Positions 19,663-53,577 of a stretch of DNA of 64,000 nucleotides are shown piece by piece. Numbering within the stretch: the stretch's first letter is position 1; each line of letters opens with the position of its first letter. The DNA lies in assembly GCA_964597545.1 (NCBI GenBank), contig CAZQXN010000005.1:12647-76646 (forward strand), read 5' to 3'. The notes under the pieces were generated by a model that saw nothing but the letters and a program-made list of their open reading frames with translations, ran no database searches and had not been told where the DNA came from. Source of the stretch: an uncultured Planctomycetia bacterium. GTDB taxonomy: Bacteria > Omnitrophota > Gorgyraeia > 1-14-0-20-64-10. The position numbers and the translations under genes were made by a program.

Positions 19663-20957
19663 TCCTCTTGCCTCACAAGCTGGAGCAACGGAATGGGCCG
19701 AGAAGCCACCTCTCCCATAACGGATGAGCCAGGAATGCGCACATTGATTTGAGCCCCCTCGAATAATTTCTGACCGCGGCACTCAAGGTATTGCTCCTTC
19801 CAGGAGGTCACGATTTCGATGGGGAGCACTACCTTCACCAGCGCGGATCCACCCTCCCTGCCCTTCTCGGCGCTTAAGACCGTGATGGTTTTGGCTGCGT
19901 TTTCGTCGGCAGTCTGAACCTCAGGGTGATCCGGGTAAAGCCGCGCCAGATCCAAATCGCTCAAGCCGGAAAATCGCAGTACCACCACCGCTCTTGTTGA
20001 GATAGAGCTTTTCGGGGGCGCCAAAGCACCCTTTTCAAGCACTGCCTCTGCGCCATCGGGACGGGTTACCTTCAACGGCAGCCAACCTGGGGCTGAAGGT
20101 CGAAACGGGTGCGGCAGAGTGGCTTTGAGCACCGATGGGCTTAACCGCTGCACCTCTTGCAAAGAAACATCGCCCAGGGTAACCTCGCAACCCTTTCGGA
20201 AATCAGATCCCAGGATCAGCAGCTGCCGCACCTGAGCATCAATCCGATTGGGGCGCACCAATCGGACAGAGAGAGCGGTCTCTTTCTCGGTGGCCGCGGA
20301 GCTTAAGGTGTCGGTTCGGCTTTTGGTGGCAATTCCCTGCCAATGTGCGGTTTCTTCATTGGCATTGGTGACGGTTACGTAATACAAGTCCTGCGTAAGC
20401 CTCTCACCCACAATGGCCTCCAGCCGCGTGGTGCTTTGATGAACGAACCCCAGCACGGGAAATGAATCAATCGCTACCCTGCAATCGGGACCGAAATAAT
20501 CTCCCTTGATGACCAGGAGGGTTGTGTCCATTGTGGTGGGCAGCACCTCCACCTGAGAAATGGAAGGTGCCCAAACCACCTCGAAGGCCTCCTCCAAGAG
20601 CACAAAGCGGCCTCGGCCGTTTCGGATGCCGAGCCGGAAGATCCCCTCCGGGAATTCCTTGGGAATCCCGATGTCAATCCAAACCTTGTTGACAAAGGTG
20701 ACGTTCGCAAACGGAAGGTGGCCCAACTGAGCGGCGGTTTGCCGGTCAAAACCGGTTCCAAGGACCGTTAACTTGTCGGTTTCGCCAGTCACGACACGCC
20801 TGGGAGAAACCTTCTGGATGGCCAACTCCCGTTGCCCCTTTAGGCTTTGCAAACCAAAAACAAGCATCGGCCAAAGCAAGGTCAATAAGAGCAGGCCGGC
20901 CAGGTCTAGGACGTGAATCTTTCCCAGCAATCGCCCCTGAGGATCAACGAGCCGCAA
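19659..20957 (-). CDS. DUF4330-family protein, paralog
   Basis: 432 aa. N-terminus MRLVDPQGRLLGKIHVLDLAGLLLLTLLWPMLVF parallels the 17225 gene. Repeated beta-rich segments. Confidence 0.6.
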   Translation of the reverse strand: MRLVDPQGRLLGKIHVLDLAGLLLLTLLWPMLVFGLQSLKGQRELAIQKVSPRRVVTGETDKLTVLGTGFDRQTAAQLGHLPFANVTFVNKVWIDIGIPKEFPEGIFRLGIRNGRGRFVLLEEAFEVVWAPSISQVEVLPTTMDTTLLVIKGDYFGPDCRVAIDSFPVLGFVHQSTTRLEAIVGERLTQDLYYVTVTNANEETAHWQGIATKSRTDTLSSAATEKETALSVRLVRPNRIDAQVRQLLILGSDFRKGCEVTLGDVSLQEVQRLSPSVLKATLPHPFRPSAPGWLPLKVTRPDGAEAVLEKGALAPPKSSISTRAVVVLRFSGLSDLDLARLYPDHPEVQTADENAAKTITVLSAEKGREGGSALVKVVLPIEIVTSWKEQYLECRGQKLFEGAQINVRIPGSSVMGEVASRPIPLLQLVRQEE

Positions 20958-21912
20958 AGCGCCCCCTCTCGGAGTCTGCGCACCCCCTGTTCAGCCCAGC
21001 GAAGAAGTTCACGACGTTCTGGGCACAGCGCAGCTCCATGGCTGCCCGGGAAGCCTGAGTCAATGAGGAGATGTGGGGCGTGAGGATGGCCTGAGGCATC
21101 TGGGCGAGTGGACCTTGGTACGGTTCGACCTGAAAGACATCCAGAGCCGCCCCTGAGAGGTGGCCTGATTGAAGGGCTTCAGTCAGGGCGACCTCATTCA
21201 CAAGATGCCCCCGGGCGGTATTGACCAAGCGGGCCCCAGGTTTCATGAGGGCAATTTCTGCTTTGTCCAGCAGGGGTCCTGCGTCCGGTTTGCGAGCAGC
21301 ATGCAGAGACACCACATCTGAGCGGCGAAGCAGCTCTTCGAGGGGAACCATGGCGACTCCGCTCGGCACCCCCTGCGCATTGACCTGGGGGTCGGTGGCG
21401 AGGAGGGTGGGTCCGAACGGCCGCAGCAGCGCCGCCGTAGCTCGGCCAATCCGCCCCAGACCTACCAAGCCGATTGTCCACTCCGAAAGGAGGTGGCCTG
21501 TCTCTTTGCGCCAGCGGCCCTGCCGAAAATCATGCAGGTGGCAAGAGAGGTTCCGGGCCAAAGACAAAATCATTGTAACGGCAAGCTGAGCAACCGCTGA
21601 AACCACTTCATCCGGAGTGGTTAGAATCTCGATCTTGTGGTGTCGAGCCGCCTCCAAGTCAATGGAATCGGTCCCGGTGCCGCAGCGGCTGATGCAGCGC
21701 AGTTCCGGAAGGGCCTGAAGTATCTCTGAATCGTAAGGCTCCACTCCAGCCAAAACCGCTTGGGCACCCCGCAGCTCCCTGGCCACCTCCTCCCGGCGCA
21801 ATCGATGACCCAGGGTGTTGCGCCGGAGGCTCAACCCTGCGGTATTGAGGAGCTCAAGGGGACGGTTGTCAGTTTCGCAAAACTGTTGGAGTGCAATATA
21901 AACTGATGGCAC
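20944..21912 (-). CDS. D-isomer-specific 2-hydroxyacid dehydrogenase (PGDH/LDH-D family)
   Basis: Catalytic/NAD domain GLVGLGRIGRATA and RGHLVNEVALTEAL...LDVFQVEP. Start re-placed at the in-frame GTG at 21912 (MPSVYIALQQF...), 5 nt after the upstream gene stop, giving a ~322 aa protein. The 492 aa track ORF N-terminus is a low-complexity over-extension overlapping the 21921 gene. Confidence 0.75.
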   Translation of the reverse strand: MPSVYIALQQFCETDNRPLELLNTAGLSLRRNTLGHRLRREEVARELRGAQAVLAGVEPYDSEILQALPELRCISRCGTGTDSIDLEAARHHKIEILTTPDEVVSAVAQLAVTMILSLARNLSCHLHDFRQGRWRKETGHLLSEWTIGLVGLGRIGRATAALLRPFGPTLLATDPQVNAQGVPSGVAMVPLEELLRRSDVVSLHAARKPDAGPLLDKAEIALMKPGARLVNTARGHLVNEVALTEALQSGHLSGAALDVFQVEPYQGPLAQMPQAILTPHISSLTQASRAAMELRCAQNVVNFFAGLNRGCADSERGRFAAR

Positions 21913-21920
21913 CTGCGGCC

Positions 21921-23069
21921 TCAGGAAGGGTGTGTGGTTTGAACAGCGGCGCCGGGAGTCATGGGAAGCGTTTTTCCGGTGGCGGTACGCTCGCCGATGT
22001 ATTCGAAATAGGGATTGTTGGCAATCTTTTCCGTGAAGAACAGGGCCTTGCGGTGATACAGGTAGGGATTCGAGAAGATGGGGCAGACGCCAAAATGGAG
22101 GCGCCGTCGATCTTCCGCGCAAATGGGATAGTCCGCTATGGTCAGGTCGGTTTTGTAGGTCGGCCACGATTGAATCCGGTTGACCAGGAAAAGGATGCGG
22201 GCGTTCTGCACGGGGGCGGATTGCATGTAAAAATTGAACCAGTCCCGCGTCATCTCGCCAAATGAGGCGCAGTTGAATACCAGGTCCGCGGCATCCGGCT
22301 CCAGCATGCTGAATTTTGGGCAGGGCAGCAGCACAAAGTCGTACTGGCTCAGCCACTTGCGGTTTAGGGTGGTTTCCTGAAGCACTTCTCGGATTCCGGC
22401 AATGCGGGCCTTCGGCATCCACATCTTGAGGAAGTAGCGGGCCAGGAGGAGCTGTTCTGAAAAATCAGCCAGGATATGGTGCGTCCCTGGCCACTCCTGG
22501 CTGACGAGACCCGAGAAGATGCCGTAGCTTGAACCGATATCCAAAACAAGGTCCCCCGCTTTAAGCCCATCGCCGAGCGTATCCCGAAGAACGCTTTGGC
22601 ACCAAATGTGCTTGAGCCACCGGTAGGTCACCGCATGGCCCATGCGCCGGTAGACGAACGGCTGGCCCACCGGCGTGCAGGGATACTTTCGAAGGAGTGC
22701 TTCAGCGGTGGGGCTCGTCCGGATGACTTCCAGGCATTCGTCCAGCGTATGCCGAATTCCACGGCGCCCTCCCCCGATGAGGTTCCGGGGATCAAGTCGG
22801 TTGATGTAGAAGGTGGGGGCATCCGGGATGAAGATCCGAAGCCGGCGAAACTGCCGGAAAGCCTGCGGGTCAATGGAGCCGTCTTGACGAAAGAGACGGC
22901 CGGGCTCCTTGGAAACCAAGGCGCGCCACTTCGGGGGAAGCTTCTGCCTGGGCAGCCCCAGCAAACCTGCCTCTCGGGCCGCCTGGGCATCTGCCTGGAT
23001 CTCGGCCAACACTTCCTGTTCAATCCGGAGGGTGGAATCAGTCATTTTTGACACAGAGAAACCCAACAA
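21921..23069 (-). CDS. methyltransferase-fold protein downstream of CmoA; weak CmoB-like (carboxymethyltransferase) resemblance
   Basis: 382 aa. Rossmann-type stretch DLVLDIGSSYGIFSGLV...HILADFSEQLLLARYF loosely aligns with E. coli CmoB (RTILDVGCGSGYHMW...AVGIDPTQLFLCQFEA). Overlaps the CmoA-like gene by 32 nt. Family assignment uncertain. Confidence 0.45.
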   Translation of the reverse strand: MLGFSVSKMTDSTLRIEQEVLAEIQADAQAAREAGLLGLPRQKLPPKWRALVSKEPGRLFRQDGSIDPQAFRQFRRLRIFIPDAPTFYINRLDPRNLIGGGRRGIRHTLDECLEVIRTSPTAEALLRKYPCTPVGQPFVYRRMGHAVTYRWLKHIWCQSVLRDTLGDGLKAGDLVLDIGSSYGIFSGLVSQEWPGTHHILADFSEQLLLARYFLKMWMPKARIAGIREVLQETTLNRKWLSQYDFVLLPCPKFSMLEPDAADLVFNCASFGEMTRDWFNFYMQSAPVQNARILFLVNRIQSWPTYKTDLTIADYPICAEDRRRLHFGVCPIFSNPYLYHRKALFFTEKIANNPYFEYIGERTATGKTLPMTPGAAVQTTHPS

Positions 23070-23781
23070 AGTTGTACCACTGGAAAAAAGTCTCGGCGAT
23101 CTGGAAACCGGATCGCCTGAAAAGCTCTAGATCTTCATCGATTTGAAACGGTATCAAAACGTTTTCCAAGGCTTCACGCTTTCGCACGATCTCCTCGTTG
23201 CTGTAGCCGTTTCTCTTCTTGAAGGCGTAATAATTCTCGATGAACAGCCGGTTCATCTCGCCGCTGCGGGTCAGCACCTTCTCTGTCACAATGAATGCTC
23301 CGCCGCTGACCATCGATTGGTAGATGTGGCGGATGAGGCGGTCCCTGTACAGGGGGCGAACAAACTGAAGGGTCCAGCAGAGGGTAACAACGCTGGCATT
23401 TTCGAGGGAGAGATCGGGGTCGCTGATGTCCCGGCAGTGGATCTCGATCTGCTGTTCCAACTTCCTCTCTCTAACATGGGTCTTGGCCTGCTGAACCATC
23501 GGCTCCGAGCTGTCGTAACCCACCAACCGGGCCGATGGATCCTGAAGTATCTGGGCAGCGTTGATGAGCGTTGTTCCGGTGGAGCAACCCAGGTCGTAGG
23601 CCCGGGTGCCGGGGAGATAAAACTGCTTGGCCAACTCCTGAATCAGCATCTGCTGCTCCCGGTAAAAAGGGACGCTTCGGACCAACATGTCATCGAAGAC
23701 AGCGGCCACCTCACTGTTGAATTCGAAGTCGCTCCCTCGAGAAGCGGTACCCTGAAACACCTGATCTTTGCTCTTTTGCAT
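23038..23781 (-). CDS. cmoA: carboxy-S-adenosyl-L-methionine synthase homolog (CmoA family)
   Basis: Colinear similarity to E. coli CmoA over the full length: FNSEVAAVFDDMLVRSVPFY / PGTRAYDLGCSTG / ENASVVTLCWTLQF / SGGAFIVTEK / FKKRNGYSNEEIVRKREALENVL / FQWYNFVGF. ATG at 23781 is preceded by a GGAAAGGGG SD-like sequence. Confidence 0.8.
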   Translation of the reverse strand: MQKSKDQVFQGTASRGSDFEFNSEVAAVFDDMLVRSVPFYREQQMLIQELAKQFYLPGTRAYDLGCSTGTTLINAAQILQDPSARLVGYDSSEPMVQQAKTHVRERKLEQQIEIHCRDISDPDLSLENASVVTLCWTLQFVRPLYRDRLIRHIYQSMVSGGAFIVTEKVLTRSGEMNRLFIENYYAFKKRNGYSNEEIVRKREALENVLIPFQIDEDLELFRRSGFQIAETFFQWYNFVGFLCVKND

Positions 23782-23904
23782 GATTGCCTTGCCCCTTTCC
23801 TGCTGCCTCACTGAAAAGAAATCAAACTGCATTCCCTCAACTTCACCGCCGTTTTGAGAACCTTCTCAAAGGGCTCCTCGTTGGCTTGAGTGACATCATA
23901 GAGT

Positions 23905-24813
23905 TCATCTGGTTTTCCTTGCGGAGGGATTCGCAGGTTGTTTCAGAAGGGAGCCTTCTATTACCGACTCAGTATAAGCTCCGGGGTTTCCCTTGTCTAG
24001 GTCTTTAAAAACAGCCTGCTGCAGGGGATCCGCCTCCAAGCAGCGACGCACTTCCGGGATCTCGCGCTGCTCATTGATGCCGCTGTAGCCTCTGGTGAAC
24101 GAAACGCTCATGAGTAGCACTTCATGTTCTACAATTCGGTTCTGATCGATGGATTCGGCTCGTTCCAGGGGGGTACGTGCAAGAGCGCTGTAGCGCCCCA
24201 GGAAATCTTTCCGATAAGCCAAAATCCCAAGAATTCGTCGCAGGGGTCCCGACGCTTCTCCCGCAGGCAGCGGCAAATGAGAGAAGTCGCGCGCGCACAC
24301 CAAAATGCGGCCCGACACTGAAAGGGCGCATTTCACGATCGATCGGTCCGCAAGCTCCTCACCCCTCTCAATCCTGGCCACCGCATTCCACGCAGGGATC
24401 TCCGGCCGCTCCTGGATCGCCTGAACCAGGCGCTCCAAATCGGAGGGAAGCACCAGGATCTCATCTCCTTGAACATTGACGACATGGGTGCAGTCCAAAG
24501 CTTGGGCCGCCTCCGCAACTCGGTCTGTGGCAGCGGGATGCTTGGGCGAGGTCATGAGCACCTGGCCTCCATTTTTCTCAACGACAGCTGCGATTTGGCG
24601 ATCACAGGTGGCGACCACGACGGTAGAAAATCCGCGGCACATCAGGGTACGCCTCCGAACATGCTCAATCATCGGAAGCCCCAAAATCTCCAGGAGGGGT
24701 TTCCCGGGCAGCCGCGAAGAGCCCATTCGAGCAGGGATAACAGCTGCAATTCGAATCATTGAACGCATCATCACACCTACTGGGGTAACGTCCCGCAATC
24801 TATATTGAGGCAC
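23905..24813 (-). CDS. KdsB-like cytidylyltransferase (CMP-ulosonic acid synthetase family)
   Basis: IAAVIPARMGSSRLPGKPLLEILGLPMIEHV matches the KdsB/CMP-Kdo synthetase N-terminal motif. Real start probably an internal M (MIRIAAVIPAR). Confidence 0.75.
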   Translation of the reverse strand: MPQYRLRDVTPVGVMMRSMIRIAAVIPARMGSSRLPGKPLLEILGLPMIEHVRRRTLMCRGFSTVVVATCDRQIAAVVEKNGGQVLMTSPKHPAATDRVAEAAQALDCTHVVNVQGDEILVLPSDLERLVQAIQERPEIPAWNAVARIERGEELADRSIVKCALSVSGRILVCARDFSHLPLPAGEASGPLRRILGILAYRKDFLGRYSALARTPLERAESIDQNRIVEHEVLLMSVSFTRGYSGINEQREIPEVRRCLEADPLQQAVFKDLDKGNPGAYTESVIEGSLLKQPANPSARKTR

Positions 24814-25541
24814 TGGCCGGTGATGGCCGATGCACCCTGAGAAACCAAGAAGTAAACAACCTCAGCGACCTCCTCGACCTTGGGCAATCGGCCCAGAGCA
24901 GTCTGGGTGGAGGCAAAGTTGGACAGATACGCCTCAACGGTTTCGCCCGCCGCAGGAGAAACCGGCTCCCGGAGGGCGGCATGGATCTGCTCGGTTTCCA
25001 CGTAGACCGGACAGACGGCGTTGACACGAATTCCCTTGGGCCCAAGCTCCTTGGCCAGCGACTGGGTGATGCCGTTGACCGCAAACTTGGCGGCGCAGTA
25101 AGCGCTGTTGTTGGTTGAGCCGCGCTTGCCCGCCAGAGAGGAAACGTTGACAATGACTCCTCCTGTGGGCATCCCCTCGGCTGCAGCTGCGCACCCCCAC
25201 AGGGTACCCAAGAGAGAAGTCTCAATCACCTTCTGGACGAAGAGCTCATCAATGTCATGCAGCGATTTCCAACGAGACACCCCCGCGCAGTTGATGAAGA
25301 CGTCCAAAGAACCGAAACGCTCCCTGGCGGCGCGAACAAAGCGGTGCATCCCATCCCGCTGCCGGACATCGACCCGCTCATGAAAAATCCCCTTAGGCAG
25401 CGGGGGTTGCGGGGTTGCGCGCGAGCAAACCGCCACTTGATCGCCCCGGTTGCAGAAAAGTTCCGCAATCGCCCGGCCGATCCCCCGGCTGCCGCCGGTG
25501 ATCACCACACCCCTGCTCTTTTGAGCTTGGTTCTCCTCCAT
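24777..25541 (-). CDS. SDR-family oxidoreductase
   Basis: TGGSRGIGRA cofactor motif and YCAAK catalytic motif. Confidence 0.8.
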   Translation of the reverse strand: MEENQAQKSRGVVITGGSRGIGRAIAELFCNRGDQVAVCSRATPQPPLPKGIFHERVDVRQRDGMHRFVRAARERFGSLDVFINCAGVSRWKSLHDIDELFVQKVIETSLLGTLWGCAAAAEGMPTGGVIVNVSSLAGKRGSTNNSAYCAAKFAVNGITQSLAKELGPKGIRVNAVCPVYVETEQIHAALREPVSPAAGETVEAYLSNFASTQTALGRLPKVEEVAEVVYFLVSQGASAITGQCLNIDCGTLPQ

Positions 25542-25549
25542 TGTGTCCC

Positions 25550-26308
25550 CTAGATTGTCATGGCGGTAAACCCGCCATCCACTGTAACCACCGAACCCGT
25601 TACGAAGCTGGAAGAATCTGAGGCCAACCAGACAACAGCCCCCACCAACTCGCTGGGTTTGGCAAACCGGTTCATTGGGGTGTGCCCCAAAATCTTCTCT
25701 TTTCGTTCCGCATCAATGAAATGCTTCATGCTCCACTCGGTCGGAAGAAAACCGGGCTTGAGTGCGTTGACGCGAACGTTAAAGGGGGCCCATTCCCGCG
25801 CCAGATTCTGCGTCAGGTTCAACACCCCTGCCTTGGCAGCCGAATAGACGAATGCCCTGGACAAGGGAGGGTCGGCAGAGACCGACGTGAAGTTGATGAT
25901 GGAACCAGACTTCTGCTTGATCATGGTCTCTCCGAATACCTGACAGGCATAGAGCGTACCGCCCAGATTCACGCCGAGAATCCAGTCGATCTCCTCTTGA
26001 GTAATCTCGAAGAACGGCGTCGGCGCATTGGCTCCAGCGCCGTTGAGGAGCAGATCCACCCGTCCATGCTTGGCGAGGATCTCTTCTCGACAGCGGATGA
26101 GTCCCTCTTTTGAAGTCACATCGCACGACAGGACATCAACGGATGCGGGCACGCCGGCTTTGCGCGCCTGCTCCTCGGGCGCCGCATCCAAAACCGTCAC
26201 GGCCACCCCGGCTTCATCCAACGCTTTGGCCAGGGTGGAGCAGATGTATCCGGCGCCCCCCACGACAACGGCGCGCTTTCCCTTTAGATTGAACCGATCA
26301 TTTGACAT
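25550..26308 (-). CDS. SDR-family oxidoreductase
   Basis: VVGGAGYICS Gly-rich motif and YSAAK catalytic motif. Confidence 0.8.
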   Translation of the reverse strand: MSNDRFNLKGKRAVVVGGAGYICSTLAKALDEAGVAVTVLDAAPEEQARKAGVPASVDVLSCDVTSKEGLIRCREEILAKHGRVDLLLNGAGANAPTPFFEITQEEIDWILGVNLGGTLYACQVFGETMIKQKSGSIINFTSVSADPPLSRAFVYSAAKAGVLNLTQNLAREWAPFNVRVNALKPGFLPTEWSMKHFIDAERKEKILGHTPMNRFAKPSELVGAVVWLASDSSSFVTGSVVTVDGGFTAMTI

Positions 26309-26933
26309 GGGCTTGTACCAGTTCTTTAAAATGAGTTACGTCCTTTCCGACAGCACCAAAATGGACCCCTGCGGCTTGAGCTGCCCGGGAATCCTCTTGA
26401 GTGTCCCCAAAGAAAACGATTTCTTCCGGCCGCCAGTTTTTACTCTTCTGTAGCTCTTTTAACCACAAGGACTTCTCAACCGGAGCCCCCCGAATCTGAC
26501 GGAAGTATTCCATCCAACCCCTCTGCTTCAAAATCTCCAGGAGCACCTGGTGCGGCGTACTTGAGAGCAGCCCTGTCCAATGGGTTTCCTGCACGTGACG
26601 CAAAAAATCCAAAGCCCCCGGAATCTCGCGAGCCCGAATGATTTGGCCGGTCGTCTCAGCCTCAAAACAGCGGTGAAGCTTGGCGTCCACTTCGGGGGTA
26701 TAGGGCAGTTTCAGAATTGTCTCGTAGACCGTGCGAAACTTAACATCCCTGGGTGTATGGTGATGGTTGTTGCAGTAAGCCAGGATCTCCTCCTGTCTCT
26801 GCGGAAAATCATCAAATACCCGCTCAAACGCCCGTGCCTTGATGGGATTGGAATCGACCAGGGTGCCGTCGAAATCAAAAACCAATCCCCGCGCGCGGGC
26901 AAACCGGCACTGAACCTCCGAAGCCCCTGACAT
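26298..26933 (-). CDS. HAD-superfamily phosphatase (subfamily IA)
   Basis: Motif I LVFDFDGTLVDS and C-terminal FFGDTQED. Confidence 0.7.
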   Translation of the reverse strand: MSGASEVQCRFARARGLVFDFDGTLVDSNPIKARAFERVFDDFPQRQEEILAYCNNHHHTPRDVKFRTVYETILKLPYTPEVDAKLHRCFEAETTGQIIRAREIPGALDFLRHVQETHWTGLLSSTPHQVLLEILKQRGWMEYFRQIRGAPVEKSLWLKELQKSKNWRPEEIVFFGDTQEDSRAAQAAGVHFGAVGKDVTHFKELVQAHVK

Positions 26934-26936
26934 GAT

Positions 26937-27737
26937 TTAAACCTTTTCCTCCTGACGAACCCCTTGGATCAAACTGCGCATCCGCTCCCCCCACTTCCAA
27001 AGCAGGAACACATCTGAGGCCAAAACCACAAAGGTGTACCCGCCCTCAAGGGCGGCTTGAACATTTTGGGCATTGGGATCAACGATCTGTGTCCCGCAGG
27101 CCTTACCTGCCCTGCGGCAGGCCTGAGCAACTTGCGCACAAGCCTGGGTCACCTTGGGATGATTCAGCTGACCCGGCACCCCCACCGAGCCGGAGATGTC
27201 ATAGGGTCCCGCCATCAGACCGTCGACCTCCGGAAGATCCAACAGGGATTCCGCAGCCTCAACTCCGGCCAGGGATTCAATCTGCAAGATCAGGACTGAG
27301 CGCTCGTTCCAACGCTCTACATAGGCATCAAAATCAAAACCATAGGTATGCGCTCGAGCCACCCCGAAGGAGCGCTTCCCTGCAGGCGGATATTTGCACC
27401 AATCGATGAGCTGCTTGGCTTCGCTGACCGTGGAGACATTGGGGGCAATGATCCCGTCGGCCCCGCTGTCGAGTAGACGCCTGACCATCTCTCCATTGTG
27501 GGAGGCAATGCGGGGAAGACACGGCAAACCACCCGCCTGGGAGGCAGAGATGATGGCCTGTGCCTGCTCCATGGAGATGGTGCTGTGCTCCAAATCGATG
27601 CCGATCCAGTCGACCCCGGAGCGGACAAATGCCTCCGTAATGGATGCGTGCCCCAGGGAAGTCCAACCGCCAAAAAGGGGTTCACGGCTTCTGAACCGCT
27701 TGCCGATGCCTTGATCCTGCTCTATGCCGCTCTTCAT
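26937..27737 (-). CDS. HpcH/HpaI-family class II (2-keto-acid/pyruvate) aldolase
   Basis: 266 aa. GGW..LGHASITEAFVRSGVDWIGIDLEH.. pattern typical of the HpcH/HpaI/GarL/YfaU fold. Confidence 0.75.
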   Translation of the reverse strand: MKSGIEQDQGIGKRFRSREPLFGGWTSLGHASITEAFVRSGVDWIGIDLEHSTISMEQAQAIISASQAGGLPCLPRIASHNGEMVRRLLDSGADGIIAPNVSTVSEAKQLIDWCKYPPAGKRSFGVARAHTYGFDFDAYVERWNERSVLILQIESLAGVEAAESLLDLPEVDGLMAGPYDISGSVGVPGQLNHPKVTQACAQVAQACRRAGKACGTQIVDPNAQNVQAALEGGYTFVVLASDVFLLWKWGERMRSLIQGVRQEEKV

Positions 27738-28897
27738 CTTGCACCCTCCTCACGTAGAAATTGAAGGAGCTCTCCCGCAGACCGCTCCATGCTAAAACGG
27801 TGTGCGGCTTTGGGTCCGTTGGTCCGGAGGCGTTCGCGCAAACCAACATCCTCCACCATCCGCACAATCTGGCGGTGCAGAGAATCGGCGCAGCCGGGCT
27901 CGGCCAACAGGCAGTTCTCTCCGTCTGCCGCATATTCCTTCACCCCCTCTACAGCCGTCGTCACCAGTGCCGCACCCGATGCCATGGCCTGTAGAGGCGG
28001 AGCCGGGAATCCATCGTACCGGCTGGGATAAACAAAGATATCGCTCTCCCGAAGCGCATCGGCATACGCGGCGCCATGCAGGTAGCCAAGGTTTTGATCG
28101 AACACCTTGGCCTGCTCCGGGGTGACCCTTCCAACGGAGCGGAGGGTCAGCTGATCACGCACCTGCTTCAAACGACGAAGCGCCTCCACTCCGATCTCCC
28201 TGCCCTTTTGAACGTTGGGATCGCAGTAAAGGGTCACAACCAAGGTCAGGCGATCTGCCTGGTGGGTCGGCGGCCGAAAAAGTGCTAGGTCGACCCCTCC
28301 GGGAATCATCCTGCGAATTGGAATTCCCAGGCGCTCACAGGCCTCCTGCGCCTCAGCGCTTGTGGTAAGCCGAGGGGCGGTAAAGGTGCGCTCCATCTCA
28401 ACCCAATGCTCGAACCAAGCCGCCGCCGCGGGATTGGGGGAGCGCATGGCGCGCTCGAGGTTGACGTGAATCACTGAAACCATCTTGCGCGGGGAGTCGC
28501 CCATCGACTTGAGAAGATGCGGCATCAGGTAAGGAGGATGAACCACAGTAACGCTGTTCTCCTTCCAGCGCTTCGCAGAAGGGACCAGCCCATAACAGCG
28601 GGCTTTCACCCGAGCATCAACCGCATGGTACCGCAATCCGCTCCAGCGCCTCCGAAAGAGCATCTCAAATGGCAGCGCCAACACCAGCTTTGCCCCCCAG
28701 AACCATTTGCGCCATCCCCTGCGTTGGCTTAAAACAAAACGCTTAAAATCCCACCAGTCCACCGCCGGAAAAAGAACAGTCGTGGGCACCCCTTGTCGAA
28801 CAAAAATGTTGGCGGTGTCCGCAGCAATCCGGGTGACAGAGCCGCGGCGATTATGCGAGAGGAGCATCTGCACCGAGAACTGACCGTTTCCCTTCAC
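27734..28897 (-). CDS. GT4-family (GT-B) glycosyltransferase
   Basis: C-terminal DIFVYPSRYDGFPAPPLQAMASGAALVTT with the E-x7-E-like motif. Confidence 0.8.
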   Translation of the reverse strand: MKGNGQFSVQMLLSHNRRGSVTRIAADTANIFVRQGVPTTVLFPAVDWWDFKRFVLSQRRGWRKWFWGAKLVLALPFEMLFRRRWSGLRYHAVDARVKARCYGLVPSAKRWKENSVTVVHPPYLMPHLLKSMGDSPRKMVSVIHVNLERAMRSPNPAAAAWFEHWVEMERTFTAPRLTTSAEAQEACERLGIPIRRMIPGGVDLALFRPPTHQADRLTLVVTLYCDPNVQKGREIGVEALRRLKQVRDQLTLRSVGRVTPEQAKVFDQNLGYLHGAAYADALRESDIFVYPSRYDGFPAPPLQAMASGAALVTTAVEGVKEYAADGENCLLAEPGCADSLHRQIVRMVEDVGLRERLRTNGPKAAHRFSMERSAGELLQFLREEGAR

Positions 28898-28899
28898 CC

Positions 28900-29769
28900 C
28901 TACACCTTCCCCCTGAGGCGCCGCACAACGTTTGCAAGCCCTCCTCGCCAGCGAGAGGAAAAGACCATATCCCGCCGGTCTTCGATCCGAACCGAACCGG
29001 GCTGCTTCCCCCGCAGGGAGACTCCAACGGCAGTTTCAGCCGTTCCGGTTTCCGGAAGGTAACATTCCCGCGGCAGATAGCGATTTTCTCGGCCGCCCAA
29101 CACCATGTGGTTCCGGTAGATCTGGATCTGGGCCTTGGGCCGTTGGCCTCGAATGCGCTCAATCAACTCCTCAAGATTCAGCACAAGATACGGCATCCAA
29201 CCATCGTAGTGATACTGGCAGGAACGCTCTGGGTCCAGCTCTGTTTTTCCGCTGTCCCGAGTTCGCGTCCTTAGGATCAGGGTTTCCTCGGCCGAGCGCA
29301 GCAGCCCAACCAAGAAACCCCATGGGTCTACTTGATGATGCATGACATCCTTCGAATAGACGATTTTCCAACCCAGCCCCTTTCCCCACGCAGTGAGATT
29401 CTCCTGCAGGGTCTTGGCCGGGTCCCCCAGGCAAAACTGGGCCTGGGGATATTTGCTCCTTGCCCGATCCAAAGCAACCGGGGAGATGTCCACTCCAGCG
29501 TAGGTGAGGCTGGGGTAGCGGTACTTGAGGTAACGGTAAAACTCTCCCGTAGCACACCCCATCTCCAGGAGCTTACCCTCTGTGCCGCTGGGATACCACT
29601 CCCGAAGTAGGCTGACATCGTTGAATGACTCGTAATTTTTCAGCAGGTCCGAGACGCCCAAGGAGGAGCGGCGATCAAAGCTGCGAGCATGCTTCTGATG
29701 GCTCCAGTCGGAGAACCACTTGGAAGGAGCACCTGCCGCATGCGCTTGTGTTTCGACCTCACCGCTCAT
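28900..29769 (-). CDS. class I SAM-dependent methyltransferase
   Basis: LLEMGCATGEFYRYL SAM-binding motif I. Confidence 0.7.
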   Translation of the reverse strand: MSGEVETQAHAAGAPSKWFSDWSHQKHARSFDRRSSLGVSDLLKNYESFNDVSLLREWYPSGTEGKLLEMGCATGEFYRYLKYRYPSLTYAGVDISPVALDRARSKYPQAQFCLGDPAKTLQENLTAWGKGLGWKIVYSKDVMHHQVDPWGFLVGLLRSAEETLILRTRTRDSGKTELDPERSCQYHYDGWMPYLVLNLEELIERIRGQRPKAQIQIYRNHMVLGGRENRYLPRECYLPETGTAETAVGVSLRGKQPGSVRIEDRRDMVFSSRWRGGLANVVRRLRGKV

Positions 29770-30503
29770 CTGGATTCAAGGTTCGCAGGTTGCGTTCTCC
29801 GGTTCGAGGCGGTCAGCTTCTCGGCATCCCTGAGAAACATCCCAACGGTCTCTTTGCTGTAAGGATGAACCAACATCCCCTCCAAGAGTTTTGGAACCGC
29901 TGTCACGATGTCTGCCCCTGCCTCAAACCACTGGATGATGTTCAGCACCTCGCGGGTAGACCCCACGATGATTTTGGCGGAAGAACCAAATGCGTCCAGA
30001 AGCCCGCGCAGGCGGCGGATCTCAGCCGCGGAATCGTATCCCATGTTGTTCACCCGTCCCCCGAAGATCGAGACATAGGTCGCCCCCGCCATGGCCGCAA
30101 GCAGGCACTGCTGTGCCGACATCATGGCTGTGACATTGACTCGAATGTCCTCTTCGGCTTCAAGGCGGTGAACCAGCTCCAGATTTTCCGTTCCTCCCTC
30201 TGGGCCGTGGATCGGGATCTTGACGTTGATGTTCTTTGCCCACCCTGAAAAGGTCCGGGCCTCATTGAGCATCTGGTCCGATTCGTTGGTGGTCACCTCA
30301 ACGGAAACCGGCATAGGATCGATTCGGCGGGCAATCTCTCTGATGTGCCGCTCAATCCCTTCCCAACCCCCCTGCACACCATCCTTGACGAGGATCGTGG
30401 GGTTGGTGGTGACTCCGCGGATGATCCCGAGGTGATGGTACCTGTCGATTTCATCCAGCTTGCCTGTATCCAAAAAAATCCCAGTTAAATGTATGCCATT
30501 CAT
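29766..30503 (-). CDS. transaldolase-family protein (fructose-6-phosphate aldolase/TalC-like, short form)
   Basis: 245 aa. GVTTNPTIL motif and overall FSA-like length. Confidence 0.75.
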   Translation of the reverse strand: MNGIHLTGIFLDTGKLDEIDRYHHLGIIRGVTTNPTILVKDGVQGGWEGIERHIREIARRIDPMPVSVEVTTNESDQMLNEARTFSGWAKNINVKIPIHGPEGGTENLELVHRLEAEEDIRVNVTAMMSAQQCLLAAMAGATYVSIFGGRVNNMGYDSAAEIRRLRGLLDAFGSSAKIIVGSTREVLNIIQWFEAGADIVTAVPKLLEGMLVHPYSKETVGMFLRDAEKLTASNRRTQPANLESR

Positions 30504-31126
30504 TCTTTTTGAGCTCCTTCAAAGACTGCGGTCGATTCCCACTTGTTCCCCTGAACCATCAGCCGCGGATCACACACCAAACCATGCCAGACCACAGCCT
30601 GAAAGGCCTCTGTGTGCGGCGTTGTGTTGTTGGGGTTGACGGTAGGAACCACCAAGACATGGGTTCCCTCATGTTTGGCAGCGCCCCCATCCCTGCCGAC
30701 AATTCCCAGAATGTCCATCTCCCGGGTGCGTGCCTCGTCGATGGCAGCGACAAGATTGGTGCTGATGTTGCGTTGGCGAGAGCCCCCTCCAACCGAAAGG
30801 ACAAAAAGGGCATCCCGGCTGCCTGCGCGGCTGGTCTTGAGCCACTCGGAAAAGACCGTTTCCCACCCCTCATCGTTGGTTCGGGCAGTCAGCTCTGCCA
30901 CGTTGTCGGCCGGGGTATAGGCTTCAATTCCGGCGAGCTTGCGAAAATCGCAGACTGCATGAGAACAGTTCCCTGCCGAACCCCCAACACCAACCAGAAA
31001 GAGCCGCCCCCCTTCCTGGCGAAGGCGAACGAGCCGTTCTACGATGCGGTCGGCGGCCTCACGATCCAACTGCTGCGCCACCTGACCGACCTCTTCAAAA
31101 TATTGATCTAAGAATGCCTTGCTCAT
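30500..31126 (-). CDS. SIS-domain sugar-phosphate isomerase, GmhA-like (sedoheptulose-7-phosphate isomerase family)
   Basis: 208 aa. GRLFLVGVGGSAGNCSHAVCDF and LSVGGGSRQ...ILGIVGRDGG colinear with GmhA. Confidence 0.75.
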   Translation of the reverse strand: MSKAFLDQYFEEVGQVAQQLDREAADRIVERLVRLRQEGGRLFLVGVGGSAGNCSHAVCDFRKLAGIEAYTPADNVAELTARTNDEGWETVFSEWLKTSRAGSRDALFVLSVGGGSRQRNISTNLVAAIDEARTREMDILGIVGRDGGAAKHEGTHVLVVPTVNPNNTTPHTEAFQAVVWHGLVCDPRLMVQGNKWESTAVFEGAQKE

Positions 31127-44560: not shown

Positions 44561-46080
44561 CAGAAACCCACCCTCTTGCCGCTACGAAAACCGTTTGGAT
44601 AGACGGCCTCGTAATCCAGAAGAAAGGTTCCCCGGCGAGGGACAACCTGCTCTTCCAATCGATACGTATCGGGGTTGTAGACTTGAAAAACCCACGCGGC
44701 GCCCCGCCGAGTAATGGGAGAACGAACCACATGCGTCGGCCTCTTCTCCCCTGCAACCAGATGGACCAAATAGGGAAAACCTCGGCCCAGAAGAGCTTCC
44801 ACGCCCCAATAGGTGTCCAGTTGATCGTTGGAGTTTTGAACCCAAGTGTATGGAATCTGTCTGGAGAAACTCGCCTGATCGATCAACACCCGTTCAGAAC
44901 GAAGGAGTGCCTCTTTGGATGCGGTGAGGGTATCGCAAATGGCCCGATTGATCCGGCAAGCCACCACTTGGTTCCAGGCCGTTCCCTGAGAGACCACAAG
45001 CCCCAGGAATAACGCAGCACTCACAGCAAGCACGCGAAATCTCCCAAGCAGAGGAATCGCTGCAGCAATCAAGAGGACAAAACCAATGGATGACATCCCG
45101 GTATGCCGCCCTAGAATGCCCCATGTCAGAAAGACCGGAGCAACCAAAAGGATGAAGATGGCGGCAGCCAGCCCAAGGGTTGGGGCTGGAACCTTTGGGA
45201 AAGAGGTTCGCTTCAACCAGCGCCAGAGGCCCGCGGCAAAGAGAGCGTTGGCTGCCACCAGCAAGAAGATCCACGGCGCCTCGATGGTTGGAAAGCGGTA
45301 CAGCCCATAGAGAATCCACTTGGCCATCTGCCGGCCGAGGTAAAGCTGGGGAAGCATACTAAAAATGTTGGGTAGAACTCTCACCAGTTGGACATCGGGG
45401 GCTTTTGAATCTGACGCAACCCACCCAAAAACATCAAACCGAAGCAGGAGGTAAGCGGCAACAGGTATGAGAAAAAGAAGGCACGCCTTGGCGCTGCGGC
45501 GCTCTTTCAACCAGGCATAGAGGAGCAAAACCAGCGGCAGGAAGAACCCAAGCTCATACATGAAAAGGGCTGTTGTATAGCAGAGAAATGAGCCAGCCAG
45601 ATGGCCCCACCGTTTCCTCTGAGTGTAGAGAATAAAGAGGATAAGACTTGCCACATAAAGGGTAAAGACCACATTCAGGTAGGTATAGGTGAGGGTATGG
45701 TAGAGTGCCAGTTTATTGGGCAAAAGAAGATAAAACAGTGCGCACAAAAAGGCCCACCCCCGCCGTTCCAGCAGGAGATTCAGCAACAGATAAACCGCCC
45801 AGAGCAACGCTGTGCTGGAGAGAAAGACCAGGCTGACCGCAAACAACGGCTTCTCGGCTGCGAGAACATCCAGGGCATAATGAAAGATCAGGAGGGGGCG
45901 GTCAGGGGTGGACAAAATCTCCTGCCACAAGAAGAGCATGGTGTTCTCTTGGTTGAGGATGGCGAGCCATCGAGCCACATCATCCAAAGAGAGAAAGACC
46001 CGTTCAAATGGAATAAAATGAGCCAATCCATTGACCGCCAGAAGAACCATCAGGGGGAGCAGGTGTCGCTTCATGCTCAT
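44560..46080 (-). CDS. polytopic integral membrane protein (candidate glycan polymerase / GT-C-type transferase)
   Basis: 506 aa with roughly 12 hydrophobic helices. No soluble domain. Confidence 0.5.
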   Translation of the reverse strand: MSMKRHLLPLMVLLAVNGLAHFIPFERVFLSLDDVARWLAILNQENTMLFLWQEILSTPDRPLLIFHYALDVLAAEKPLFAVSLVFLSSTALLWAVYLLLNLLLERRGWAFLCALFYLLLPNKLALYHTLTYTYLNVVFTLYVASLILFILYTQRKRWGHLAGSFLCYTTALFMYELGFFLPLVLLLYAWLKERRSAKACLLFLIPVAAYLLLRFDVFGWVASDSKAPDVQLVRVLPNIFSMLPQLYLGRQMAKWILYGLYRFPTIEAPWIFLLVAANALFAAGLWRWLKRTSFPKVPAPTLGLAAAIFILLVAPVFLTWGILGRHTGMSSIGFVLLIAAAIPLLGRFRVLAVSAALFLGLVVSQGTAWNQVVACRINRAICDTLTASKEALLRSERVLIDQASFSRQIPYTWVQNSNDQLDTYWGVEALLGRGFPYLVHLVAGEKRPTHVVRSPITRRGAAWVFQVYNPDTYRLEEQVVPRRGTFLLDYEAVYPNGFRSGKRVGF

Positions 46081-49135: not shown

Positions 49136-49147
49136 GCTCCTTGCCTC

Positions 49148-50218: not shown

Positions 50219-50775
50219 CCCTCGAGCTTTCCGATCGCCTTGAGGAGTGCTGTGGCATACAGGGGATAGAGGGTGTTGTAAACTTCACCAACAGACCGCT
50301 CCCCTGAGAGGGGAATAAACTCCTCCGCCAGGACTTCGCCCTCATCGACCCGCTCTATCATCCGGTGAACGCCGACGCTGGCGCGGGGGCTGCCGTCTCT
50401 CAACATGCGCTCGATCGGCCCGGCTCCTTTGTACTTCCACAGGCAGGGATGCGCGTTAATGCCACCCAGCCGGCAGAGGCGAAGCAGGCGCTCTGGCACA
50501 ATTTCTCGTCCGTGTACAGAGACCACCAGGTCTGCTTCCCGGAAACAGGATTCCGCCCCATCTTGACGGATGGAAGAAAGAATTGGCAGCTTCAGCTCCT
50601 GCGCCAGGCGCTTGAGCGAATCGTCATAGGCCACCACGCCGATGACCCTCAAACCTACGCCCAAGACGGTCAGCAGGCCCATACAGCCTGCCTGCCTGCT
50701 GCCCAGAAAGAGAACCCGAAGGGGAGGATTCACCCTGTGAGACCTCCCCGCTCGAGAAAAGTACGCCTCGCCCAA
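50215..50775 (-). CDS. formyltransferase-domain protein (Fmt N-terminal-like), short
   Basis: INAHPCLWKYKGAGPIERML and GVHRMIERVDEGEVL resemble the catalytic loops of formyl transferases. Confidence 0.5.
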   Translation of the reverse strand: MGEAYFSRAGRSHRVNPPLRVLFLGSRQAGCMGLLTVLGVGLRVIGVVAYDDSLKRLAQELKLPILSSIRQDGAESCFREADLVVSVHGREIVPERLLRLCRLGGINAHPCLWKYKGAGPIERMLRDGSPRASVGVHRMIERVDEGEVLAEEFIPLSGERSVGEVYNTLYPLYATALLKAIGKLEG

Positions 50776-50788
50776 GGTCTAACGGGAC

Positions 50789-51838: not shown

Positions 51839-51859
51839 CGCCGTCGCTCCGCTCCCTGC

Positions 51860-53575: not shown

Positions 53576-53577
53576 CT

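What the first reader, a model, noticed from the sequence alone, without database searches (positions are those of the whole stretch)
21921..23832. CmoA (carboxy-SAM synthase) ortholog plus methyltransferase-fold partner embedded in a glycan operon
The 23038-23781 protein aligns along its whole length with E. coli CmoA (FDDMLVRSVPFY, YDLGCSTG, FKKRNGYSNEEI…ENVL, FQWYNF). CmoA converts prephenate + SAM to carboxy-SAM, normally used by CmoB to carboxymethylate tRNA U34. Here it is followed, with a 32-nt overlap as in cmoA-cmoB operons, by a 382 aa Rossmann-type protein with weak CmoB-like similarity and then by a 2-hydroxyacid dehydrogenase. That dehydrogenase could reduce the phenylpyruvate by-product of Cx-SAM synthesis. 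Sitting after a 123 bp gap inside a sugar-biosynthesis operon, this suggests carboxymethyl transfer to a non-tRNA acceptor (sugar, nonulosonic acid or glycan). That would be an undescribed modification chemistry.
Basis: partly seen in the sequence, partly recalled or inferred. Interest (0 to 1): 0.8.

Follow-up and report, generated by a model that had tools for sequence, protein, structure and literature searches.

The report
Candidate sugar carboxymethylation gene pair
A gene for the enzyme that makes the rare cofactor carboxy-SAM overlaps a sugar-methyltransferase-like gene inside a huge surface-sugar gene cluster, and this pairing recurs across many bacterial phyla, so these bacteria probably add carboxymethyl groups to sugars, a modification I found no report of.

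Summary
Window 23038-23781(-) encodes a full-length CmoA: it passes NCBI's CmoA equivalog cut-off, matches E. coli CmoA at E=4e-45, and keeps the carboxylate-binding Arg199. Its stop overlaps the ATG of a 374-aa class I methyltransferase-fold protein at 21921-23045(-) by 8 nt, not 32.

That partner is not CmoB-like. It belongs to the uncharacterised 'putative sugar O-methyltransferase' family TIGR04371.

Among 30 partner loci found independently of CmoA, spanning at least 8 phylum- or class-level lineages, 25 carry a CmoA-family gene on the same strand. In 23 it is directly adjacent, and both gene orders occur. These loci are Kdo-type or pseudaminic-type ulosonic-acid sugar clusters, as is the window.

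Close relatives of this CmoA elsewhere sit next to two other unrelated methyltransferase-fold families, never next to CmoB.

Best reading (about 0.55): a dedicated carboxy-SAM synthase plus sugar carboxymethyltransferase module.

Not shown: that the partner binds carboxy-SAM, what the acceptor is, and whether the genome has a second cmoA or a cmoB.

The proposed phenylpyruvate-reducing role of the dehydrogenase is not supported.

Non-tRNA carboxy-SAM use is already known (TglF, MccB, phage CmoX). A glycan acceptor and this transferase family would be new.

The parts
23038..23781 (-). cmoA homologue, a carboxy-SAM (Cx-SAM) synthase of 247 aa. The stop codon is at 23038-23040. An alternative upstream ATG at 23832 would add 17 aa.
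   Evidence: TIGR00740 scores 224.6 bits against a cut-off of 193.3. PDB 4gek/1im8 match at E~4e-45 over the full length. Tyr39, Asp62, Gly64, Ser66, Asp89, Asp117, Phe137, Lys198, Arg199, Glu203 and Asn204 of E. coli CmoA are conserved; Asn90 is Ser, Asn132 is Cys and Phe133 is Trp. The public gene call is 247 aa.
21921..23045 (-). Partner: a 374-aa class I methyltransferase-fold protein of the 'putative sugar O-methyltransferase' (TIGR04371/NanM-like) family. It is the candidate Cx-SAM-dependent sugar carboxymethyltransferase.
23038..23045 (-). An 8-nt overlap, ATGACTGA: the partner's start codon overlaps the cmoA stop codon (translational coupling).
   Evidence: Read directly from the sequence. 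The same -8 overlap occurs in L001, L010 and L012, and other small overlaps or gaps occur elsewhere.
20944..21912 (-). D-isomer-specific 2-hydroxyacid dehydrogenase (322 aa, GTG start), 8 nt downstream of the partner. It belongs to the sugar cassette and is not tied to CmoA.
   Evidence: PF02826 at 4e-50 and PF00389 at 2.5e-19. Homologues occur only in loci that also carry the KdsB-like/GmhA-like/HpaI-like cassette, including L016, which lacks CmoA.
23905..24813 (-). KdsB-type CMP-ulosonic-acid cytidylyltransferase, 123 nt upstream of cmoA.
   Evidence: NF003952 scores 200.2 bits against a cut-off of 193; PF02348 at 8e-38.
24777..31126 (-). The rest of a Kdo-like ulosonic-acid cassette: two short-chain dehydrogenases (24777-25541, 25550-26308), a HAD phosphatase (26298-26933), an HpcH/HpaI pyruvate aldolase (26937-27737), a GT4 glycosyltransferase (27734-28897), a methyltransferase (28900-29769), a TalC/FSA-like aldolase (29766-30503) and a GmhA-like SIS isomerase (30500-31126).
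   Evidence: The HpaI + two short-chain dehydrogenases + CMP-transferase combination recurs beside partner homologues in L025, L026, L111 and L112.
46077..55841 (-). A pseudaminic-acid-type nonulosonic-acid pathway in the same island: PseB (54783-55841), PseC (53578-54861), a B12 radical SAM gene (51860-53575), NeuB/PseI (50789-51838), a formyltransferase-like gene (50215-50775), PseG (49148-50218), a Gfo/Idh/MocA oxidoreductase (48122-49135) and a CMP-transferase fused to a class III aminotransferase (46077-48122).
   Evidence: In L003, L005, L006, L007, L010 and L020 homologues of these genes lie in the same locus as the cmoA-partner pair, mostly just upstream.

Best explanation
This is a two-enzyme carboxymethylation module recruited to surface-glycan synthesis.

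Step 1 (inferred from close homology). The CmoA homologue converts SAM plus prephenate into carboxy-S-adenosylmethionine (Cx-SAM), releasing phenylpyruvate.

Step 2 (inferred from conserved gene pairing, fold and family). The translationally coupled 374-aa NanM-like class I methyltransferase-fold enzyme uses Cx-SAM in place of SAM. It transfers -CH2-COO- to a nucleophile, most likely a hydroxyl, on a 3-deoxy-2-ulosonic acid sugar of Kdo type or pseudaminic-acid type. The sugar could be free, CMP-activated or already in the glycan.

Step 3 (inferred from context). The sugar is CMP-activated by the neighbouring KdsB-type enzyme, transferred by the cluster's glycosyltransferases and exported by its ABC transporters.

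The result would be an extra negative charge on the cell-surface glycan, or a handle for further amidation.
For: CmoA identity:
- It passes the NCBI equivalog cut-off (224.6 vs 193.3 bits) and matches E. coli CmoA over its full length at E=4e-45.
- Arg199, which salt-bridges the Cx-SAM carboxylate in CmoA and is not conserved in ordinary SAM methyltransferases (PMC3663124), is kept, as are 8 of the 10 other listed ligand contacts.

Coupling:
- The two genes overlap by 8 nt.

Conserved pairing:
- 30 partner loci were found using the partner alone as query (genome scan L001-L024; contig look-ups L025-L027 and L109-L112).
- 25 of them carry a CmoA-family gene on the same strand; 23 are directly adjacent.
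- Both gene orders occur.
- The lineages are Omnitrophota, Nitrospirae, Dehalococcoidia, Planctomycetes, Peribacteria, Elusimicrobia, Alphaproteobacteria and Burkholderiales.
- Two of the five exceptions are cut by contig ends.

Co-divergence:
- A neighbour-joining tree groups CmoA sequences by the type of their neighbouring transferase gene.

No CmoB:
- There is none in the window (best E=0.07) and none beside 80 close CmoA relatives.

Sugar context:
- The partner passes the 'putative sugar O-methyltransferase' model TIGR04371.
- It always lies in clusters with NeuB/PseI, KdsA-like or HpaI aldolases and CMP-transferases.

Precedent:
- CmoA paired with an unrelated dedicated transferase is established for TglE/TglF, MccS/MccB-CTD and phage CmoA/CmoX.
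Against: - There is no direct evidence that the partner binds Cx-SAM. No ligand modelling was possible.
- Comparison with wider TIGR04371-like relatives found no basic residue specific to the CmoA-linked clade. R67, R142 and K/R145 are shared by the whole superfamily. Only W143, Q198, F195 and P122 are clade-specific.
- Three partner loci with ample flanks (L013, L016, L025) have no CmoA nearby.
- About half of the paired CmoA-family genes are a divergent 'class 2'. They fall below the CmoA cut-off and have Arg199 replaced, with Arg or Lys one position later. Their product is uncertain.
- I found no report of a natural carboxymethylated sugar. My searches were limited and partly badly designed.
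- The rest of the genome could not be inspected for a cmoB or a second cmoA.
Confidence: 0.55

Rival explanations
1. Two ordinary SAM-dependent methyltransferases tailor the same sugar. Either the CmoA-like protein has become a plain methyltransferase, or it makes Cx-SAM for something else and the NanM-like partner simply O-methylates with SAM, as its family name suggests.
For: - The partner passes a model named 'putative sugar O-methyltransferase'.
- No clade-specific cationic residue was found that would single out a carboxylate pocket.
- The cluster holds several other methyltransferases: 28900-29769, 32837-33802 and 9139-10218.
- The class 2 neighbours lack Arg199 at the aligned position.
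Against: - The window protein is a canonical CmoA: above the equivalog cut-off, with Arg199 and the Lys198-Arg-x-x-x-Glu-Asn motif intact.
- CmoA is reported not to O-methylate prephenate and to use the SAM methyl as a nucleophile.
- Two independent methyltransferases would not be expected to stay adjacent, in both gene orders and often overlapping, across at least 8 lineages while the surrounding genes change.
Confidence: 0.22
2. This is a housekeeping tRNA wobble-uridine (cmo5U) pathway. The cmoA is the genome's ordinary copy, and the partner is a non-orthologous replacement of CmoB that happens to sit in a glycan island.
For: - The window's cmoA is a bona fide CmoA orthologue.
- No cmoB is seen in the window, so a replacement would be needed if the organism makes cmo5U.
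- The rest of the genome could not be searched.
Against: - The partner has no specific similarity to CmoB.
- It belongs to a sugar-methyltransferase family.
- In every informative locus it is embedded in ulosonic-acid or polysaccharide genes, never near translation or tRNA genes.
- There are no tRNA genes in the window.
Confidence: 0.05
3. The CmoA homologue supplies Cx-SAM to a different enzyme of the island, such as one of the other methyltransferases or a lipid- or protein-modifying enzyme. The partner's adjacency would then reflect shared regulation only.
For: - Close CmoA relatives pair with other methyltransferase-fold families (F1, F8) in other loci. The donor module therefore moves between acceptor enzymes.
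- One MAG (L002/L008) has two partner paralogues and only one observed CmoA.
Against: - The only gene whose presence tracks CmoA across the partner loci is the partner itself.
- Homologues of the other window methyltransferases are sporadic: MT289 in 2 loci and MT321 in 3.
Confidence: 0.08

Closest known systems
E. coli CmoA-CmoB (Cx-SAM synthase plus tRNA U34 carboxymethyltransferase)
   Same: - The first enzyme is an orthologue-grade CmoA.
- The second gene is a class I methyltransferase-fold protein whose start overlaps the cmoA stop. In E. coli cmoA and cmoB overlap by 4 nt; here the overlap is 8 nt.
   Different: - The second enzyme is unrelated to CmoB beyond the shared fold.
- It belongs to a sugar-methyltransferase family.
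- The genomic setting is glycan biosynthesis, not tRNA modification.
- No equivalents of CmoB Lys91, Tyr200 or Arg315 could be assigned.
Phage CmoA-CmoX(-CmoY) DNA 5-carboxymethylcytosine system (PMC12783734)
   Same: - A CmoA copy is recruited next to a transferase from an ordinary methyltransferase family that has switched to Cx-SAM.
- The carboxymethyl group can serve as a handle for amide ligation. Asparagine-synthase-type amidotransferases recur near the pair here.
   Different: - The acceptor there is DNA cytosine C5 and the transferase is a C5 DNA methyltransferase homologue with a defined Arg that binds the carboxylate.
- Here the transferase is NanM-like, the presumed acceptor is a sugar, and no determinant residue has been identified.
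TglE/TglF (3-thiaglutamate) and MccS/MccB-CTD (microcin C of Bacillus) (PMC10491745)
   Same: A CmoA homologue plus a dedicated carboxymethyltransferase in a secondary-metabolite cluster. MccB-CTD shows that the transferase need not resemble CmoB.
   Different: The acceptors there are a peptide thiol and a peptidyl-cytidylate. TglF is CmoB-like, and the partner here is not.
TIGR04371 'methyltran_NanM' putative sugar O-methyltransferases
   Same: - The partner scores 83 bits against a cut-off of 44.
- It shares W40, F66-R67, R142, D169-x-G171, Y174-G175, D/E194, N258, S261, E264-M265 and N289-R290 with wider relatives.
- It lies in nonulosonic-acid gene clusters.
   Different: - Only residues 123-297 match the model.
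- The clade has its own N-terminal region and its own signatures (W143, F195, Q198-L199, P122).
- It is almost always paired with a CmoA-family gene.
- I found no biochemically characterised member of the family.

Membership tests
CmoA (carboxy-SAM synthase, TIGR00740) | Full-length match above the curated equivalog cut-off | tested here: met
   224.6 bits against a cut-off of 193.3, covering model positions 1-239 of 239. PDB 4gek matches at E=3.9e-45 over residues 4-245.
CmoA (carboxy-SAM synthase, TIGR00740) | Arg199, which salt-bridges the carboxymethyl carboxylate and is not conserved in ordinary SAM methyltransferases (PMC3663124) | tested here: met
   The motif K-R-E-A-L-E-N-V aligns with E. 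coli K198-R199-S-M-L-E-N-V.
CmoA (carboxy-SAM synthase, TIGR00740) | SAM/Cx-SAM contact residues Tyr39, Asp62, Gly64, Ser66, Asp89, Asn90, Asp117, Asn132, Phe137 | tested here: met
   Seven of the nine are identical. Asn90 is Ser and Asn132 is Cys. The Cys132-Trp133 pair is shared by the whole environmental CmoA radiation.
CmoA (carboxy-SAM synthase, TIGR00740) | Catalyses SAM + prephenate -> Cx-SAM + phenylpyruvate | not testable with these tools
   This needs an enzyme assay.
CmoB (tRNA U34 carboxymethyltransferase) | Sequence or profile homology to CmoB, including its unique N-terminal domain of about 100 aa | tested here: not met
CmoB (tRNA U34 carboxymethyltransferase) | Lys91, Tyr200 and Arg315 contacting the Cx-SAM carboxylate | tested here: inconclusive
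   No alignment to those positions exists. Conserved basic residues are present (R67, R142, K145, H146, R94-R95), but most are shared with the wider family and could equally bind the acidic sugar.
TIGR04371 NanM-like putative sugar O-methyltransferase | HMM score above the curated cut-off | tested here: met
   83.2 bits against a cut-off of 44. Only residues 123-297 match model positions 102-273.
TIGR04371 NanM-like putative sugar O-methyltransferase | Class I methyltransferase fold with SAM motif I and an acidic residue at the end of strand 2 | tested here: met
TIGR04371 NanM-like putative sugar O-methyltransferase | Uses SAM to O-methylate a sialic-acid-like sugar | not testable with these tools
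   I found no characterised member. The donor and acceptor need biochemistry.
Cx-SAM two-gene modules (CmoA plus a dedicated carboxymethyltransferase) | A CmoA-family gene conserved next to, and co-oriented with, one particular methyltransferase-fold gene across taxa | tested here: met
   25 of 30 partner-ascertained loci have one; 23 are directly adjacent. Both gene orders occur and at least 8 lineages are represented.
Cx-SAM two-gene modules (CmoA plus a dedicated carboxymethyltransferase) | The transferase prefers Cx-SAM and the product carries +58 Da | not testable with these tools
   This needs ITC or kinetics and mass spectrometry.

The most novel reading that the evidence does not exclude
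Cx-SAM is a general glycan-tailoring cofactor in many mostly uncultured phyla. The NanM-like partner family would be a new class of sugar carboxymethyltransferases that put a carboxymethyl ether on Kdo-type or nonulosonic acids. I found no report of such a modification in natural glycans, and it might be amidated further. At least two more unrelated methyltransferase-fold families (F1, and F8, which resembles TIGR04325) would do the same on other glycan or glycolipid acceptors, each with its own co-diverging CmoA.
Probability: 0.45. Interest if true: 0.85.

Novelty: new variant of a known kind. Interest (0 to 1): 0.72.

Why it matters
- Carboxy-SAM has so far been tied to tRNA, two antimetabolite or antibiotic pathways, and phage DNA. 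A conserved CmoA-transferase pair in ulosonic-acid clusters would extend it to cell-surface glycans. It would predict a new acidic sugar modification (+58 Da) in Omnitrophota, Nitrospirae, Planctomycetes, candidate-phyla-radiation bacteria and some Proteobacteria.
- It would give the uncharacterised TIGR04371-like family a testable function.
- It would offer natural carboxymethyltransferases for biocatalysis.
- Three cultured strains carry the pair (L019 Hoeflea sp. CAU 1731, L022 Flavimaribacter sediminis WL0058, L024 Polynucleobacter bastaniensis), so the prediction can be tested directly. All three have the divergent class 2 CmoA rather than the canonical type found in the window.

Tried and rejected
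- CmoB-likeness of the partner was tested four ways and rejected.
- The dehydrogenase as a phenylpyruvate reductase was rejected on distribution. My first tblastn for it used a wrong reading frame; this was corrected.
- I looked for a Cx-SAM-specific basic residue by contrasting the CmoA-linked clades with wider family members. None was found. The test is weak because the linkage status of the wider members is unknown.
- The search for related loci with the broad alignment A1 failed. The narrower alignment A2 worked.
- An exact-sequence look-up of the partner's contig found nothing. The organism is therefore inferred only from the nearest relative, an Omnitrophota MAG at 74-78% amino-acid identity.
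- The partner has no match in plasmids.
- Rfam and tRNA scans of the window were empty, and the promoter and terminator scan gave no more sites than chance.
- Literature searches were badly designed, because common terms satisfied the filter, and are uninformative. Searches found no report of Cx-SAM-dependent glycan modification or of a characterised TIGR04371 member.
- Kim et al. 2013 (PMC3895326) is not held in the library, so I could not check the prephenate-pocket residues.
- The roughly 630-aa protein that often accompanies the pair elsewhere is not detectable in the window.
Full report
**What is there**

The 64-kb window is a single minus-strand glycan-biosynthesis island. At the flagged position three genes follow one another.
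- A CmoA homologue at 23038-23781.
- A 374-aa protein at 21921-23045, here called the partner.
- A D-2-hydroxyacid dehydrogenase at 20944-21912.

The cmoA ATG at 23781 and the partner ATG at 23045 agree with public gene calls of 247 and 374 aa and with the N-termini of homologues. With these starts the partner's ATG overlaps the cmoA stop by 8 nt (ATGACTGA). The 123-nt gap after the KdsB-like gene (23905-24813) is correct.

**The CmoA homologue is orthologue-grade**

- It scores 224.6 bits on TIGR00740 (trusted cut-off 193.3) over the entire model.
- It matches the E. coli and H. influenzae CmoA structures at E~4e-45.
- Arg199 forms the salt bridge to the carboxymethyl carboxylate. Byrne et al. 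singled it out as the residue that separates CmoA-like proteins from ordinary SAM enzymes (PMC3663124). It is conserved here.
- Tyr39, Asp62, Gly64, Ser66, Asp89, Asp117, Phe137, Lys198, Glu203 and Asn204 are also conserved. Asn90 is Ser, Asn132 is Cys and Phe133 is Trp.
- It is the only CmoA homologue in the window. No CmoB is present; the best tblastn E-value is 0.07, to an unrelated methyltransferase.

**The partner is a methyltransferase-fold protein but not CmoB-like**

- It has no Pfam hit. It passes NCBIfam TIGR04371 'putative sugar O-methyltransferase (NanM)' at 83 bits (cut-off 44), but only over residues 123-297.
- An AlphaFold model built from 37 homologues is confident, with pLDDT 93.5.
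- A profile search of PDB sequences finds no CmoB even at E<=10.
- hhalign against E. coli CmoB aligns only 39 columns around SAM motifs I and II, at 20% probability.
- The claimed 'weak CmoB-like similarity' is therefore just the shared SAM-binding motif.

**The pairing is conserved**

This is the main result. I searched with the partner alone. The sources were a scan of one genome per species (L001-L024) and contig look-ups for members of a more distant clade. Together they gave 30 independent loci.
- tblastn shows a CmoA-family gene on the same strand in 25 of them.
- In 23 it is directly adjacent. In L006 and L007 one or two genes intervene.
- Both orders occur, CmoA then partner and partner then CmoA. 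Several junctions overlap by 4-37 nt.
- Of the five loci without a CmoA-family gene, L002 and L014 end within about 110 nt of the partner. L013, L016 and L025 have ample flanks and truly lack it.
- The carriers are Omnitrophota, Nitrospirae, Dehalococcoidia, Planctomycetes, Peribacteria, Elusimicrobia, Alphaproteobacteria and Burkholderiales.
- The surrounding genes differ between loci, so the pair itself is the conserved unit.

**Two classes of neighbouring CmoA**

- Class 1 comprises the window, L001, L003, L004 and L006-L011. These are canonical: the full-length members tested (L003, L006, L010) score 247-254 bits on TIGR00740, the window scores 224.6, and Arg199 is kept in every member whose sequence reaches that position.
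- Class 2 comprises L005, L015, L017-L024, L026 and L109-L112. These are full-length CmoA-family proteins below the cut-off (73-165 bits). Position 199 is Gln, Ala, Ser or Thr, and an Arg or Lys follows it.
- L005 combines a window-type partner (45% identity) with a class 2 CmoA. The two classes therefore appear interchangeable as suppliers.
- Whether class 2 makes the same cofactor is unknown.

**The reverse test**

A metagenome scan with the window CmoA returned 80 loci at 48-67% identity.
- Only one (L035) contains the partner, and none contains an E. coli-type CmoB.
- In 37 loci the gene immediately downstream is a methyltransferase-fold protein of about 255 aa (family F1).
- In 7 loci it is a protein of about 295 aa resembling TIGR04325 (family F8).
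- These loci also hold GT4 glycosyltransferases, polysaccharide deacetylases, LpxL-like acyltransferases and FAD oxidoreductases.
- F1, F8, the partner and CmoB are mutually unrelated beyond the fold.
- A neighbour-joining tree groups CmoAs by partner type, with E. coli CmoA on a long outgroup branch.
- The window's cmoA therefore belongs to a large environmental radiation of CmoA genes. Each lineage is tied to its own methyltransferase-fold neighbour, and none is tied to CmoB.
- Caveats: the tree has a single housekeeping outgroup, and the functions of F1 and F8 are unknown.

**What the acceptor might be**

The pair sits inside a Kdo-like cassette.
- This cassette comprises a GmhA-like SIS isomerase, a TalC/FSA-like aldolase, an HpcH/HpaI pyruvate aldolase, a HAD phosphatase, two short-chain dehydrogenases and a KdsB-type cytidylyltransferase. 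The last passes NF003952.
- These are functional analogues of KdsD, KdsA, KdsC and KdsB.

The same island holds other ulosonic-acid genes.
- It has a complete pseudaminic-acid-type pathway: PseB, PseC, PseG, NeuB/PseI, a formyltransferase-like gene, and a CMP-transferase fused to a class III aminotransferase.
- It has two further NeuB-family genes.

Other loci show the same two settings.
- The pair lies beside the Pse-type genes in L003, L005, L006, L007, L010 and L020.
- It lies beside the KdsB-like/HpaI/GmhA-like/dehydrogenase cassette or KdsA-like genes in L001, L015-L017, L024-L026, L111 and L112.

A 3-deoxy-2-ulosonic acid is the most economical guess for the acceptor. The exact sugar, the position, O- versus N-alkylation, and whether the sugar is free, CMP-linked or polymer-bound are all open.

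**The dehydrogenase**

- Homologues occur only in loci that also carry the Kdo-like cassette. One of these is L016, which has the partner but no CmoA.
- They are missing from most pair loci and from all 80 CmoA-ascertained loci.
- The dehydrogenase therefore belongs to the sugar pathway. A role in reducing the phenylpyruvate by-product has no comparative support.

**Mechanism and rivals**

I commit to a Cx-SAM synthase plus dedicated sugar carboxymethyltransferase module, at about 0.55.
- Step 1, Cx-SAM synthesis, rests on strong homology.
- Step 2, Cx-SAM use by the partner, rests on conserved and often overlapping gene pairing. It also follows the precedent that CmoA recruits unrelated transferases (TglF, MccB-CTD, CmoX).

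The main rival, at about 0.22, is that the partner is a plain SAM O-methyltransferase.
- In its favour, I could not identify a carboxylate-binding residue specific to the CmoA-linked clade. R67, R142 and K/R145 are shared with the wider family, and only W143, F195, Q198 and P122 are clade-specific.
- Three loci also lack CmoA.

A housekeeping tRNA role is unlikely (0.05), given the family and the invariable glycan context.

**Comparison with known systems and novelty**

- Non-tRNA Cx-SAM chemistry is established, so the concept is not categorically new.
- I found no report of Cx-SAM in glycan biosynthesis, of a natural carboxymethylated ulosonic acid, or of any characterised TIGR04371 member. 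The paper library is incomplete and two of my searches were uninformative.
- The partner's core family is modest in size. At 50% identity there are 116 representatives at E<=1e-30 and 3,177 at E<=1e-3 for the wider superfamily.
- I rate this a new variant of a known kind: a new transferase family and a new acceptor class, predicted but not demonstrated.

**Limits**

The nearest relative is an Omnitrophota groundwater MAG at 74-78% amino-acid identity (L001).
- The remainder of its genome could not be searched for cmoB, a second cmoA or prephenate synthesis.

Noticed in passing
L029-L108 (e.g. L029:1000-1758, L092:2186-3088): Close relatives (48-67% identity) of the window CmoA are followed by two other methyltransferase-fold families: F1 (about 255 aa, 37 loci) and F8 (about 295 aa, resembling TIGR04325, 7 loci). 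The two are unrelated to each other, to CmoB and to the partner. They lie in loci with GT4 glycosyltransferases, polysaccharide deacetylases and LpxL-like acyltransferases. CmoA sequences group by neighbour type in a tree. There may be more undescribed Cx-SAM-dependent transferases.
   Followed up: partly
L005:9220-9930, L015:10953-11705, L017-L024, L026:7255-7968, L109-L112: A divergent 'class 2' CmoA-family clade is paired with partner homologues. It is full-length but below the TIGR00740 cut-off. Arg199 is replaced by Gln, Ala, Ser or Thr with Arg or Lys at +1; Glu203 becomes Lys and Asn204 becomes Gly. Whether it still makes Cx-SAM is unknown.
   Followed up: partly
window 31146-32840 (-): A PEP-mutase-like domain (TIGR02320 at 314 bits, just under the 319.6 cut-off) is fused to a nucleotidyltransferase domain. 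This hints at a phosphonate decoration of the glycan.
   Followed up: no
window 46077-48122, 50789-51838, 6165-7937, 1085-1765, 3378-4877 (-): One island holds three NeuB-family synthases and four or five CMP-transferase domains. Among them are fusions of a CMP-transferase with a class III aminotransferase, of NeuB with a CMP-transferase, and of a GT2 glycosyltransferase with a CMP-transferase. The organism appears to make several different ulosonic acids.
   Followed up: partly
L003:7300-9234, L005:7316-9223, L006:6503-8407, L007:8101-9984, L010:7349-9250, L111:3387-5123: A protein of about 575-650 aa lies directly upstream of CmoA, or between CmoA and the partner, in many loci. It has no hit in the Pfam copy available here, and precomputed annotation calls the shorter form PF27878 PFTS_polysacc. 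It is a possible third component, for example the transferase for the modified sugar. No homologue is detectable in the window.
   Followed up: partly
window 14167-16110 (-); also L004, L007, L011, L018, L036, L037: Asparagine-synthase-type glutamine amidotransferases recur near CmoA modules. By analogy with phage CmoY, they could amidate the carboxymethyl group. This is untested.
   Followed up: no
window 51860-53575 and 58161-59777 (-): Two B12-binding radical SAM proteins of the C- or P-methyltransferase type lie inside the nonulosonic-acid region.
   Followed up: no
window 16088-20957 (-): Downstream of the dehydrogenase lie two IPT/TIG 'choice-of-anchor Z' repeat proteins, a 508-aa protein with a weak PMT_2 hit, and a transglutaminase-like protein. 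These are possibly the glycosylated surface proteins or their glycosylation machinery.
   Followed up: no
L002 and L008: Both contigs come from the same Omnitrophota MAG (JACPXR01). It carries two partner paralogues, 60% and 46% identical to the window's, but only one CmoA was seen. One synthase may serve two transferases.
   Followed up: no
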